Below, piece after piece: positions 1-4,049 of a stretch of DNA of 4,049 nt; the first letter of the stretch is position 1; every line of letters begins with the position of its first letter. The DNA is from a virus. Lineage: Duplodnaviria; Heunggongvirae; Uroviricota; Caudoviricetes. The notes under the pieces were generated by a model. The model made no database searches and had not been told where the DNA came from. It was given only the letters and a program-made list of their open reading frames with translations. Where the stretch lies: IMG/VR virus record IMGVR_UViG_2698536549_000014; one strand, given 5' to 3'. The translations under genes and the position numbers were made by a program.

Positions 1-2411
<2,411 letters not shown>

Positions 2412-2416
2412 TCACG

Positions 2417-2420
2417 CTCC
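2417..2420 (-). promoter_or_regulatory. Shine-Dalgarno (GGAG) for J, 8 nt upstream of the ATG
   Basis: Minus-strand sequence reads GGAGCGTGAGGA-ATG. The GGAG at 2420..2417 has canonical spacing; a second GAGG at 2413..2410 is too close to the ATG to be the main site. Confidence 0.5.
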
Positions 2421-2430
2421 ATAAACGACA

Positions 2431-2450
2431 AAACCGCCCGGAGGCGGTTT
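2431..2450 (-). other. Perfect 8-bp inverted repeat with 4-nt loop in the I-J spacer (possible attenuator or RNA structure)
   Basis: Plus strand AAACCGCC-cgga-GGCGGTTT is directly visible. On the transcribed (minus) strand the hairpin is followed by UUUUGUCGUUUAU and lies 10-29 nt upstream of the J start codon. Confidence 0.45.
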
Positions 2451-2467
2451 CACATAAACGTTTTTCA

Positions 2468-3115
2468 TCAGCGACCAATCACCACAACCTGACCACCATC
2501 CCCTTCGTCTGCCGTGCTGATCTCCTGAGAGACCACCCGCGACCCCACGCGCATTTCACCGTACAGAACCGGCAGAACATTGCCCTGGGCAACCATGTTA
2601 TCCAGTGAGGAGAAATAGGTGTTCTGTTTGCCGTTATCTGTACTGGCTGCCGTGGGCGTCCTGGCTTTCGGTGCCAGCATCTGCGCCACTCCGCCCAAGA
2701 TCATACTGGCCCCTGCCGCATACATGCCCGATACAGCCGCGGCCCCCAGCCAGCCCACAGGGTTCCACCATGCCACCGCAATCAGCGCCGCCCCAAGCAC
2801 CACCTGAAACACACCGCCACTTTTAGCTCCCGCCAGACGCGGCACGATGTGGATCACGGCACCATTTGCCAGCGGCTCATTAAGACGGGCAGATAATTCA
2901 TTTTCGCCTGCATCACGCCCGGCAATGCGCACCTGATACCAGCCCTCATTCAGTTTCTGACGAAACACCGGGAGCTGTGTGGCCAGTGCCCGGATGGCTT
3001 CAGCCCCCGTTTTCACACGAAGGTCGATACGGCGACCAAATCGTTGCAAATCCCCGTAAAGGCAGATGCGTGCCATGCCCGGTGACGCCAGAGGGAGTGT
3101 GTGCGTCGCTGCCAT
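2468..3115 (-). CDS. I: Tail-tip assembly protein I (gpI-like), 215 aa
   Basis: Complete ORF in the track (MAATHTLPLASPGMARICLYGDLQRFGRRIDLRVKTGAEAIRALATQLP ... VVSQEISTADEGDGGQVVVIGR), with both termini recognised as lambda gpI. Sits between K and J as in lambda. AGAGG lies 11 nt upstream of the ATG. Confidence 0.9.
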   Translation of the reverse strand: MAATHTLPLASPGMARICLYGDLQRFGRRIDLRVKTGAEAIRALATQLPVFRQKLNEGWYQVRIAGRDAGENELSARLNEPLANGAVIHIVPRLAGAKSGGVFQVVLGAALIAVAWWNPVGWLGAAAVSGMYAAGASMILGGVAQMLAPKARTPTAASTDNGKQNTYFSSLDNMVAQGNVLPVLYGEMRVGSRVVSQEISTADEGDGGQVVVIGR

Positions 3116-3756
3116 TTGTCGGTGTACCTCTCTCGTTTACTCAGTTGTTCAGGAATATGGTGCAGCAGCTCGCCGTCGCCACAGTAAATGGCGGCATGAT
3201 TCGGCACCGATGAACCAAAACAGCACAGCAGCACATCGCCCGGTTGTGCTGATGACAACGGCACCTGATACAGCCCTGTGGCCTCCAGATTATCCAGATA
3301 GAGATTCTGGCCGTTACGCCACCAGTCATCCTCACGATAAAAGTCCGGCATCTCAATCCCCGCCAGATGATAAGCATCCCGGAACAGTGTGTAACAGTCC
3401 GTCACACCGTGCTCAAAGCGCCGCCCGGTGAGATGCGGCACACAGCGGAACTTATGAATCGTCCCCCGGCAGACCAGCCACCACGGCAAATCACTCTGCA
3501 CCTGCAGCCGCCGGTCGGCCTCACTCAGCCAGGGCAGACCACCGGGGTGGCTGTGGACCAGCGCCACAATCTCACCCTGCATTTCTGCCTGCAGCCAGTC
3601 TTCCGGCGACATACGGAAATACGCCTCCGGCTCACCGGAGATATTCACGCAGGGGAAATATCTTTCCCCCTCCGGCGTGCTTACCACGAAGCCGCACGAC
3701 TCCGCTGGCGCACATCGCCGGGCGTGCGCCAGAATCGCTGATTCTGTCTGTGTCAT
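3013..3756 (-). CDS. K: Tail-tip assembly protein K (gpK-like), 247 aa; N-terminal JAB/MPN metallopeptidase-like domain fused to a C-terminal NlpC/P60-like cysteine peptidase domain
   Basis: Complete ORF in the track starting MTQTESAILAHARRCAPAESCGFVV, recognised as lambda gpK. A JAMM-type motif H68-S-H70-x7-S78-x2-D81 (HSHPGGLPWLSEAD) has an upstream ESCG glutamate at E19. An NlpC/P60-like Cys sits in GVTDCYTLF (C121), with downstream His residues (NHAAIY, LLHHIPE). The ORF starts 5 nt after the L stop codon. Confidence 0.9.
   Translation of the reverse strand: MTQTESAILAHARRCAPAESCGFVVSTPEGERYFPCVNISGEPEAYFRMSPEDWLQAEMQGEIVALVHSHPGGLPWLSEADRRLQVQSDLPWWLVCRGTIHKFRCVPHLTGRRFEHGVTDCYTLFRDAYHLAGIEMPDFYREDDWWRNGQNLYLDNLEATGLYQVPLSSAQPGDVLLCCFGSSVPNHAAIYCGDGELLHHIPEQLSKRERYTDKWQRRTHSLWRHRAWHASAFTGICNDLVAVSTFV
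3127..3131 (-). promoter_or_regulatory. Probable Shine-Dalgarno (AGAGG) for I, located inside the K coding sequence
   Basis: Minus strand reads CGAGAGAGGTACACCGACAA-ATG. Spacing of 11 nt is on the long side. Confidence 0.35.
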
Positions 3757-3761
3757 GGGAT

Positions 3762-4049
3762 TTACTGCGAAAGTTTGTTAATGGAAAGGAAGCCGCCAAA
3801 GTTGCCAACGTTATTGCGGAACTTACAACCGCTCAGGCATTTGCTGCATTTATCCTTCGTGATATCGGACGTTGGCTGGTCATATTCATCCGCGACAGCC
3901 GGACCGCTATAACCGCACTCGTCACCGCGATAGGTCCAGGTGCAGGTGTTGGCCAGCATGATACGTCCCGGAAAAACAGCGCCGTCCGTTTCCGTCGGCG
4001 TGGACAGTACAAAAGAGGCACTCACCGCGCTCAGTTCGCTGCACTGCTC
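3762..4049 (-). CDS. L: Minor tail / tail-tip protein L (gpL-like), C-terminal portion; the 5' part of the gene lies beyond the window end
   Basis: Minus-strand frame is open from the window edge (EQCSELSAVSASFVLSTPTETDG...) to a TAA at 3764..3762, ending ...CSKCLSGCKFRNNVGNFGGFLSINKLSQ, which I recognise as the lambda gpL C-terminus. The track's GTG start at 4025 is internal. The Cys-rich C-terminus fits the reported metal-cluster-binding region of gpL. Confidence 0.85.
   Translation of the reverse strand, partial: EQCSELSAVSASFVLSTPTETDGAVFPGRIMLANTCTWTYRGDECGYSGPAVADEYDQPTSDITKDKCSKCLSGCKFRNNVGNFGGFLSINKLSQ

What the first reader, a model, noticed from the sequence alone, without database searches (positions are those of the whole stretch)
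3013..3756. K encodes a two-peptidase fusion (JAB/MPN + NlpC/P60), and only the long 247-aa ORF holds a complete JAMM domain
The translation shows a textbook JAMM zinc-binding signature, HSHPGGLPWLSEAD (H-x-H-x7-S-x2-D, residues 68-81). Its expected upstream glutamate is E19 in the ESCG context, which lies inside the first 48 residues. Downstream is an NlpC/P60-like Cys/His set (C121 in TDCYTLF; H187; H199/H200). As I recall, classical lambda annotation gives K as 199 aa, which corresponds to starting at Met49 (MSPEDWLQ...) and would remove the glutamate-containing N-terminal part of the MPN fold. Here the ATG at 3756 sits only 5 nt after the L stop, so the long form is the natural reading. 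Both peptidase-like domains look catalytically intact, so K is probably an enzyme and not just a scaffold.
Basis: partly seen in the sequence, partly recalled or inferred. Interest (0 to 1): 0.5.

Follow-up and report, generated by a model that had tools for sequence, protein, structure and literature searches.

The report
Lambda tail protein K: full-length two-peptidase enzyme
The 247-codon gene is the full-length tail-assembly gene K of a lambda-like phage, an already described fusion of a JAMM metallopeptidase and an NlpC/P60 cysteine peptidase; the 199-residue version in the lambda reference records comes from one G missing in that sequence.

Summary
Window 3013-3756 (minus strand) is a 247-aa ORF that starts 5 nt after the L stop. 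It scores above Pfam's thresholds for Prok-JAB (residues 3-104) and NlpC/P60 (111-224). The 199-aa form drops below the JAB threshold and loses the catalytic Glu.

The first 48 codons are real coding sequence. They are kept in 103 distant homologues (E19 in 97%). Their dN/dS is 0.09-0.19, like the rest of the gene. They form three core elements of a confidently predicted MPN fold. Met49 is not conserved (12%).

Lambda's 199-aa K annotation is not only a start-codon choice. J02459 and NC_001416 lack a G after nt 14266, which puts the upstream ATG out of frame. Independent lambda resequencings, at least 120 IMG/VR contigs and every matching complete E. coli genome carry the G.

The biology is already known. 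The JAB + NlpC/P60 architecture and K-cleaves-gpI were published as a prediction in 2003-2006. [quoted passage not shown]

Verdict: correct finding, low novelty. It has practical value as an annotation correction.

The parts
3013..3756 (-). Gene K, full-length CDS: 247 aa plus the TGA stop.
   Evidence: ORF list. Pfam finds two domains. PHROG phrog_30, minor tail protein, E 5e-162. 78 of 80 IMG/VR relatives have a 247-aa ORF from the same ATG.
3613..3756 (-). Codons 1-48, the part missing from the 199-aa annotation. They carry helix 3-15, strands 20-27 and 30-35, and the catalytic Glu.
   Evidence: Kept in 103 distant homologues, with 3% gaps over residues 8-48 and 37% identity against 35% for residues 49-110. 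dN/dS is 0.09-0.19. pLDDT is 92-95.
3445..3750 (-). JAB/MPN+ (JAMM) metallopeptidase domain, residues 3-104.
   Evidence: PF14464 at 52.3 bits. PDB 2kks aligns to residues 7-105. Foldseek finds PfJAMM1 (5lda), Rpn11 and CSN5.
3700..3702 (-). Codon E19, the predicted general base of the JAMM site, in the motif P-x-E-S-C-G.
   Evidence: Conserved in 97% of 103 representatives. It corresponds to E22 of AfJAMM, which lies on strand beta2 and bonds the zinc-bound water.
3514..3555 (-). JAMM zinc motif H68-S-H70-x7-S78-x2-D81.
   Evidence: Conservation: H68 98%, H70 97%, S78 89%, D81 97%.
3085..3426 (-). NlpC/P60 (C40) cysteine-peptidase domain, residues 111-224. Catalytic codons: C121 (3394-3396), H187 (3196-3198), H199 (3160-3162).
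   Evidence: PF00877 at 48.4 bits. Conservation: C121 96%, H187 98%, H199 99%. H200 is Q in P0100 and P0108, whereas H199 is invariant in A2. Foldseek finds MepS and Acd33800.
3622..3622 (-). The G that is absent from the lambda reference records (after J02459 nt 14266). Its absence puts the upstream 45 codons out of frame with the rest of K.
   Evidence: Alignment A1. Translation of the lambda locus. 0 against at least 120 IMG/VR contigs. No G-less copy in 5,426 E. coli genomes. '14266 C>CG' in lambda-gt10.
3610..3628 (-). Internal GGAGG (3624-3628), an 11-nt spacer, and ATG Met49 (3610-3612). This is the start used by the classical annotation and by many gene callers.
   Evidence: It is annotated as a ribosome-binding site in OM418625. 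The 199-aa database clusters come from contigs with an intact 247-aa ORF. Met49 is conserved in only 12% of distant homologues.
3762..4049 (-). 3' end of gene L (its start lies beyond the window edge). The stop is TAA at 3762-3764.
   Evidence: PF05100 Phage_tail_L, E 4e-37. Annotation of related phages.
2468..3115 (-). Gene I (215 aa), in the -1 frame relative to K and overlapping K by 103 nt (3013-3115). Its ubiquitin-like domain is residues 14-97 (2825-3076) and ends in HIVPRxAGAK. It is the substrate proposed for K.
   Evidence: PF06805. The ATG and the GAGAGG upstream are conserved in homologues of about 70% identity. dS is reduced in the overlap. Alignment A3.
1..2408 (-). Gene J (central tail fibre), 5' part: 802 open codons running off the window.
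   Evidence: Annotation of related phages.

Best explanation
Window 3013-3756 (minus strand) is the full-length tail-tip assembly gene K of a lambda-like phage, lying between L and I. It is translated from the ATG 5 nt after the L stop. No Shine-Dalgarno sequence precedes that ATG, so translation is probably coupled to L (inferred). The product has 247 residues and two peptidase domains: an N-terminal JAMM/MPN+ zinc metallopeptidase (E19, H68, H70, S78, D81) and a C-terminal NlpC/P60 papain-like cysteine peptidase (C121, H187, H199). K is a non-structural assembly enzyme. The JAMM domain most likely cuts the N-terminal ubiquitin-like domain off the next gene's product, gpI, at the conserved ...PRxAG-AK tail, once gpI is in the tail-tip complex. 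That cut would allow the tape-measure and tube to dock. The architecture, the start region and the residue conservation are shown here. The substrate and timing come from the literature. The exact cleavage site, and any role of the NlpC/P60 site, are inferred. The 199-aa K of the lambda reference is an artefact: J02459 lacks one G after nt 14266.
For: - **Domains.** Both Pfam domains score above their cut-offs only in the long form.
- **N-terminal conservation.** Among 103 representatives under 60% identity, residues 8-48 are present and as conserved as the rest of the JAB domain. All eight catalytic residues are conserved at 89-99%, and Met49 at 12%.
- **Selection.** dN/dS for codons 2-48 is 0.09-0.19, the same as downstream.
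- **Structure.** The AF2 model has pLDDT 92-95 over residues 1-70. Foldseek hits PfJAMM1, Rpn11 and CSN5, and also MepS and Acd33800. The spacing of the AfJAMM motif (E22/H67/H69/S77/D80) matches.
- **Synteny.** The order L-K-I-J, with K starting 5-11 nt after the L stop, holds in homologues of about 70% identity.
- **The missing G.**
- **Function, from the literature.** The architecture and the K-processes-I hypothesis are in Iyer et al. 2006. gpK is absent from virions, and only gpI residues 134-222 are seen there. [quoted passage not shown]
Against: - No experimental mapping of the K N-terminus was available; the lambda ribosome-profiling paper is not held.
- The ATG at 3756 has no Shine-Dalgarno sequence, whereas Met49 has a GGAGG 11 nt upstream, so some internal initiation cannot be excluded.
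- The cleavage of gpI by gpK rests on a meeting summary, not on a paper I could read.
- The NlpC/P60 part of the model is less confident (pLDDT 52-91 per block). Its substrate is unknown.
Confidence: 0.85

Rival explanations
1. The true K product is the 199-aa protein starting at Met49, as in the classical annotation, and the upstream 48 codons are untranslated spacer.
For: A GGAGG lies 11 nt upstream of Met49, while the ATG at 3756 has no Shine-Dalgarno sequence. Several records and thousands of database entries use this start.
Against: The upstream codons have dN/dS of 0.09-0.19. They are conserved in homologues of 35-50% identity, including a 97%-conserved catalytic Glu. They are needed for the Pfam JAB hit and form core elements of the fold. 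Met49 is Ile, Leu or Val in most homologues. The short annotation in lambda follows from a base missing in the record.
Confidence: 0.03
2. Two nested products are made: the 247-aa enzyme, plus a 199-aa NlpC/P60-only isoform from internal initiation at Met49, in the manner of nested lambda genes such as C/Nu3.
For: An internal GGAGG and ATG are present in the lambda-like E. coli sequences. Iyer et al. note phages whose K homologue has only the NlpC/P60 domain.
Against: The ATG at codon 49 is absent from most homologues (12% Met). The 11-nt spacing is long for a Shine-Dalgarno sequence (general knowledge). No experimental hint was found.
Confidence: 0.1
3. K is a catalytically inert scaffold or chaperone whose peptidase-like folds are relics.
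For: No enzymatic assay of K exists in a paper I could read. Recent structural papers still call its function unclear.
Against: All catalytic residues of both domains are 89-99% conserved, against a background of 35-44%. A conference report describes biochemical cleavage of gpI by gpK. [quoted passage not shown]
Confidence: 0.05
4. The NlpC/P60 domain is a virion-borne cell-wall hydrolase used during infection, as NlpC/P60 domains are in some other phage tails.
For: A weak match to TIGR02219, 'putative phage cell wall peptidase' (25.9 bits). The structural neighbours MepS and Acd33800 are peptidoglycan hydrolases.
Against: The TIGR02219 score is far below its cut-off of 81.9. gpK was not detected in virions by mass spectrometry or cryo-EM, nor was its homologue in mature F-pyocin. 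I see no N-terminal hydrophobic signal-like segment in the sequence.
Confidence: 0.05

Closest known systems
Bacteriophage lambda gpK (tail tip assembly protein K; 'TAPK' of Iyer, Burroughs and Aravind 2006; RefSeq name 'C40 family peptidase')
   Same: Same gene. The first 240 nt compared are identical to lambda apart from the extra G. I count five amino-acid differences in the remainder from the translations (Y140H, S168A, H229R, C237Y, V243A). The gene order L-K-I-J is the same, and so is the 103-nt overlap with I.
   Different: The reference records J02459 and NC_001416 give only 199 aa, because they lack the G after nt 14266. Here the ORF is intact at 247 aa, as it is in resequenced lambda (PV340536, LC730321, DE3).
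Archaeal and eukaryotic JAMM/MPN+ isopeptidases (AfJAMM, PfJAMM1 desampylase, Rpn11, CSN5)
   Same: The same E...HxH-x7-S-x2-D motif with nearly identical spacing and the same predicted fold. They also have a ubiquitin-like partner protein, SAMP or ubiquitin, where K has the N-terminal domain of gpI.
   Different: Sequence identity is 17-25%. K is fused to a second peptidase. It is proposed to cut a linear ubiquitin-like domain-to-protein junction in cis-encoded gpI, not an isopeptide conjugate. There is no E1/E2 context.
NlpC/P60 (MEROPS C40) peptidases such as E. coli MepS/Spr
   Same: A Cys-His-His triad (my recollection of MepS as C68/H119/H131 would give the same 12-residue His-His spacing as H187/H199), a Pfam hit above the cut-off, and a fold match.
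   Different: K is cytoplasmic, has no signal peptide and is not part of the virion. Its substrate is probably a protein and not peptidoglycan (inferred).
F-type pyocin PA0639/PA0640 (PyoF8) pair
   Same: This is the gpK homologue next to a gpI homologue. The K homologue is essential for tip assembly and absent from mature particles. [quoted passage not shown]
   Different: It is a tailocin, not a phage. The protease responsible was not identified in that work.

Membership tests
JAMM/MPN+ metallopeptidases (Pfam Prok-JAB PF14464) | Profile score above the curated cut-off over the whole domain | tested here: met
   52.3 bits against a cut-off of 25, covering profile positions 3-112 of 114. The 199-aa form fails at 23.3 bits.
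JAMM/MPN+ metallopeptidases (Pfam Prok-JAB PF14464) | Complete motif E-x(n)-H-S/T-H-x7-S-x2-D | tested here: met
   E19, H68, S69, H70, S78 and D81, conserved at 89-98% in 103 homologues. The spacing matches AfJAMM E22/H67/H69/S77/D80.
JAMM/MPN+ metallopeptidases (Pfam Prok-JAB PF14464) | MPN fold | tested here: met
   The AF2 model has pLDDT 92-95 for residues 1-70. Foldseek probability is 1.00 to 5lda, 5ld9, 2kks, Rpn11 and CSN5. phmmer hits 2kks over residues 7-105.
JAMM/MPN+ metallopeptidases (Pfam Prok-JAB PF14464) | Zinc binding and peptidase or isopeptidase activity | not testable with these tools
   Only a conference summary reports that gpK cleaves gpI.
NlpC/P60 (C40) cysteine peptidases (PF00877) | Profile score above the curated cut-off | tested here: met
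   48.4 bits against a cut-off of 23, covering profile positions 1-105 of 105.
NlpC/P60 (C40) cysteine peptidases (PF00877) | Catalytic Cys, His and a third polar residue, present and conserved | tested here: met
   C121 96%, H187 98%, H199 99%. H199 is invariant, and H200 is replaced by Q in two sequences.
NlpC/P60 (C40) cysteine peptidases (PF00877) | Papain-like NlpC/P60 fold | tested here: met
   Foldseek hits 9ubf (Acd33800), 8xup (MepS) and 7v6s-u. Model confidence is lower here, at pLDDT 52-91 per block.
NlpC/P60 (C40) cysteine peptidases (PF00877) | Hydrolytic activity and substrate | not testable with these tools
   No assay data found.
Lambda tail-tip assembly protein K (TAPK) | Position between L (PF05100) and I (PF06805), upstream of J | tested here: met
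   The same order is found in Citrobacter, Edwardsiella and Salmonella homologues.
Lambda tail-tip assembly protein K (TAPK) | Close sequence identity to lambda gpK | tested here: met
   The 5' 240 nt are identical to lambda apart from one G. phrog_30, E 5e-162.
Lambda tail-tip assembly protein K (TAPK) | Required for tail assembly but absent from the virion | not testable with these tools
   From the literature only.

The most novel reading that the evidence does not exclude
The second active site (NlpC/P60 C121/H187/H199, 96-99% conserved) has its own, still unassigned protein substrate in tail assembly. [quoted passage not shown] K would then be a dual-specificity maturation protease that gates two assembly steps. 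Lambda-like E. coli phages might in addition make an NlpC/P60-only isoform from Met49.
Probability: 0.12. Interest if true: 0.5.

Novelty: already known. Interest (0 to 1): 0.2.

Why it matters
The biology is not new. The JAB + NlpC/P60 architecture of K and its pairing with the ubiquitin-like gpI have been in print since 2003-2006, and the cleavage has been reported at a 2025 meeting.

What still matters is practical. The most-cited phage reference records (J02459 and NC_001416, and to my knowledge also the UniProt entry for K) carry a truncated K because one G is missing. Many gene callers and derived annotations reproduce the 199-aa form. A 2020 review analysed the 199-aa sequence and reported only the peptidase domain at residues 52-182, with no JAB domain mentioned in the passages I read.

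Anyone designing K constructs, mutants or structure predictions should use the 247-aa sequence. The K region is also very common: it occurs in 4,066 of 5,426 complete E. coli genomes.

Tried and rejected
- **Lambda ribosome-profiling paper (PMC3718152).** I looked for it to map the start; it is not held.
- **Literature on the missing G.** I searched for a paper discussing what it means for K. I found only a variant table listing 14266 C>CG in lambda-gt10, with no comment on K in the passage read. My memory that a vendor's lambda DNA documentation lists the same insertion could not be checked with these tools.
- **The search for related loci on IMG/VR.** It returned only relatives of 96-98% identity, too close for dN/dS. 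I therefore fetched DNA for three homologues of about 70% identity with the look-up of encoding contigs.
- **Saturation.** dS was saturated (not computable) in several windows of these pairs. The dN/dS conclusion rests on the comparisons that could be computed.
- **K-I complex prediction.** I considered folding a natural K-I fusion (such as P0030) to see whether the tail of gpI docks in the JAMM site. I rejected this because the tool returns no inter-domain contacts or PAE.
- **Antisense ORFs** opposite K (3066-3431 and 3367-3741, plus strand): no family hits.
- **Promoter and terminator scan** of 2300-4049: nothing above the shuffled expectation.
- **Programmed frameshift.** I read the K/I overlap by eye for an X XXY YYZ slippery heptamer and saw none. 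This was not pursued further.

Full report
**What is in the window.** The window carries the tail-tip genes of a lambda-like phage on the minus strand.
- The 3' end of L lies at 3762-4049 (PF05100).
- K lies at 3013-3756.
- I lies at 2468-3115 (PF06805).
- J runs from 2408 to the window edge, 802 open codons.

The window is not lambda itself. The best phage records are 96% identical: vB_EcoS-640R1, mEp460 and cdtI.

**Checking the observation.** All stated features are present at the stated positions.
- The ORF has 247 codons.
- The L stop is TAA at 3762-3764, followed by ATCCC and then the ATG at 3756.
- HSHPGGLPWLSEAD occupies residues 68-81.
- E19 sits in AESCG and C121 in TDCYTLF. H187, H199 and H200 are present.
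- Met49 is the second Met.

Pfam gives Prok-JAB 52.3 bits (cut-off 25, residues 3-104, almost the whole profile) and NLPC_P60 48.4 bits (cut-off 23, residues 111-224). The 199-aa protein from Met49 keeps the NlpC/P60 hit. Its JAB hit falls to 23.3 bits, below the cut-off, and covers only profile positions 63-112. The claim that only the long ORF holds a complete JAMM domain is therefore correct.

**Are the first 48 codons coding?** Four independent tests say yes.

1. Close homologues. In 33 homologues of 68-98% identity, I8, L9, A12, P17, E19, S20, C21, G22, Y33, C36, N38 and F47 are invariant. Position 49 is Met, Ile, Leu or Val.

2. Distant homologues. An exhaustive HMMER search of 1.84 billion cluster representatives found 2,791 relatives. 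Full-length relatives of 35-51% identity align from query residues 4-10 to their own residues 3-15. Among 103 such proteins, residues 8-48 have a 3% gap fraction and 37% identity to K, against 35% for residues 49-110. Conservation of individual residues is shown below.

| Residue | Conserved in |
|---|---|
| E19 | 97% |
| C21 | 91% |
| G22 | 98% |
| N38 | 97% |
| F47 | 93% |
| Met49 | 12% (Ile in 63%) |

3. Selection. Nei-Gojobori dN/dS was computed against three homologues of about 70% identity, from Citrobacter, Edwardsiella and Salmonella. Codons 2-48 give 0.09-0.19, indistinguishable from the rest of the gene at 0.10-0.22. Some dS values were saturated and could not be computed.

4. Structure. 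An AlphaFold2 model built on the 34-sequence alignment has pLDDT 92-95 over residues 1-70. It places helix 3-15 and strands 20-27 and 30-35 inside the first 48 residues. Foldseek matches the model to PfJAMM1 (5lda, 5ld9), DSY2949 (2kks), Rpn11 and CSN5. The C-terminal half matches the NlpC/P60 enzymes Acd33800 and MepS. phmmer aligns K residues 7-105 to 2kks, with AESCG opposite NEACG. The AfJAMM motif residues E22/H67/H69/S77/D80 match K's E19/H68/H70/S78/D81 almost position for position. [quoted passage not shown] A protein starting at Met49 would lack that residue and three core secondary-structure elements.

**Why lambda K is annotated as 199 aa.** J02459 and NC_001416 give K as 14276..14875, 199 aa, with L ending at 14127. 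Translating the lambda locus shows that the upstream ATG at 14133 is out of frame with K in those records.

Aligning 240 nt shows a single difference. The reference reads GGAGGC-TATTTCCGTATG where the window reads GGAGGCGTATTTCCGTATG (window nt 3622, after lambda nt 14266). As deposited, the ORF from 14133 runs 76 codons and diverges from K after residue 45.

The G is present almost everywhere else.
- **Resequenced lambda and derivatives.** The G is present in PV340536, LC730321 (48,503 bp), KT232076, the DE3 prophage of BL21(DE3), lambda imm21, and, judging by the 231-for-230-nt matches, lambda imm434, HK629 and HK630.
- **Records without the G.** Only J02459, NC_001416, an unverified record (OR474059) and a 'chicken cloacal swab isolate' (OR974322) lack it. 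OR974322 matches the reference exactly over the region compared.
- **IMG/VR.** A 31-mer without the G occurs in 0 contigs. The 32-mer with the G occurs in at least 120.
- **Complete E. coli genomes.** The region occurs in 4,066 of 5,426 genomes. The best identity to the reference version is 99.2%, meaning 131 nt in the genome for 130 nt of query, so none lacks the G.
- **Lambda-gt10.** Whole-genome sequencing of the MutaMouse lambda-gt10 transgene lists '14266 C>CG' as a constitutional difference from the reference (PMC6760142 Table 5).

The short annotation therefore follows from a missing base in the deposited sequence, either a reading error or a variant private to that stock. It is not a free choice between two starts.

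Annotation practice remains inconsistent. K is 247 aa in PV340536 and ON470612, 211 aa in KT232076, and 199 aa in DE3 and lambda imm21 even though their ORFs are intact. The large 199-aa clusters in the protein database come from contigs whose 247-aa ORF is intact. Gene callers are probably drawn to the GGAGG 11 nt upstream of Met49. The true ATG has no Shine-Dalgarno sequence and sits 5-11 nt after the L stop in all homologues examined. That arrangement suggests translational coupling, which is an inference.

**Are both domains likely to be active?** In the 103 distant representatives the catalytic residues are far better conserved than the 35-44% background of their domains.

| Residue | Conserved in |
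|---|---|
| H68 | 98% |
| H70 | 97% |
| S78 | 89% |
| D81 | 97% |
| C121 | 96% |
| H187 | 98% |
| H199 | 99% |
| H200 | 93% |

H199, not H200, is the invariant third residue of the triad; H200 is Gln in two close homologues. This supports two working active sites.

**How it most likely works.** The literature supplies the mechanism.
- Anantharaman and Aravind (2003), as cited by Iyer, Burroughs and Aravind (2006), and the 2006 paper itself described 'TAPK' as JAB + NlpC/P60. They described 'TAPI' as a ThiS/MoaD-like ubiquitin-fold domain with a conserved C-terminal Gly. They proposed that K's JAB domain releases the ubiquitin-like domain of I.
- Ambroggio et al. (2004) listed lambda K among JAMM proteins.
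- Cryo-EM and mass spectrometry find no gpK in virions. Only residues 134-222 of gpI are resolved there.
[quoted passage not shown] The gpK homologue is essential for tips yet absent from particles. The protease was not identified.

In this window, I's ubiquitin-like domain (residues 14-97) ends in HIVPRLAGAK. The pattern H-I-V-P-R-x-A-G-A-K is invariant across five sequences down to 63% identity. It is a plausible cleavage site, but that is inferred. The role of the NlpC/P60 site is unknown.

**Rivals.**
- A product starting only at Met49 is contradicted by all four coding tests.
- An additional short isoform cannot be excluded for the E. coli lambda-like phages that carry GGAGG-N11-ATG. The ATG is not conserved elsewhere.
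- A non-catalytic scaffold is unlikely given the residue conservation.
- A virion-borne cell-wall hydrolase role conflicts with the absence of K from virions. The match to TIGR02219 is only 25.9 bits against a cut-off of 81.9.

**Novelty and score.** The finding is accurate but describes known biology. RefSeq already names the protein 'C40 family peptidase'. Pfam precomputes both domains for the 247-aa homologues. The function has been predicted since 2006 and is reported as shown in 2025. The added value is the documented cause of the truncated reference annotation, and the evidence that the 247-aa form should be used. I score interest at 0.2 and novelty as already known.

Noticed in passing
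window 3013-3115 (K/I overlap); L091, L093 and L095 at the equivalent positions: K and I overlap by 103 nt, with I in the -1 frame. The I start ATG (3115) and a GAGAGG about 10 nt upstream are conserved in homologues of about 70% identity. K codons 214-247 show dS of 0.43-0.65, against 0.9 to over 2.6 elsewhere, which is the signature of real dual coding. Met14 of I is Leu in the Edwardsiella homologue, so the upstream ATG is the likelier start.
   Followed up: partly
L003 (ON470612) 3469-4017; L004 (PV340536) 1574-; L006 (KT232076) 1574-; L217 1597-2169: Several recent records and gene calls start gene I at a GTG in a GTGA overlap with the K stop, giving 182-190 aa. That start removes the first strand or strands of I's ubiquitin-like domain (MARICLYGDLQRFG...), so these I annotations are probably truncated.
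   Followed up: partly
window 2825-2854 (I residues 88-97); alignment A3: The ubiquitin-like domain of I ends in an invariant H-I-V-P-R-x-A-G-A-K, reminiscent of the ...LRLRGG tail of ubiquitin. It is followed by a Gly/Ala-rich hydrophobic stretch. This is a candidate site for cleavage by K.
   Followed up: partly
L008 (OR974322) and L009 (OR474059): Two recent 'lambda' records reproduce the G-less reference sequence exactly over the region compared. One is described as an isolate from chicken cloacal swabs. This looks like reference-guided assembly or lambda control DNA, not independent confirmation.
   Followed up: no
proteins P0008, P0013, P0020, P0030, P0033, P0045, P0079; phrog_35166: The database holds L-K and K-I fusion proteins, mostly singletons of 311-428 aa. 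It also holds a PHROG family whose profile joins a JAB segment to an I-like segment. Most are probably frameshifts in the short L-K gap or the K/I overlap. Iyer et al. mention natural JAB-TAPI fusions.
   Followed up: no
E. coli complete genomes: The 5' region of K occurs in 4,066 of 5,426 complete E. coli genomes, at 7,890 places and a median of 2 per positive genome. That makes this two-peptidase gene one of the commonest prophage genes in the species.
   Followed up: no
window 60-1316 (+): A 418-aa ORF lies antisense to J. Its only match is a sub-threshold 20.5-bit hit to a zinc-ribbon model. It is most likely a spurious antisense ORF in G+C-rich coding DNA.
   Followed up: partly
PMC6760142 Table 5: The same variant table lists '137 AG>A' next to '14266 C>CG'. 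The reference record may therefore have a compensating extra G near nt 138, which would keep its total length at 48,502. LC730321 is 48,503 bp.
   Followed up: no
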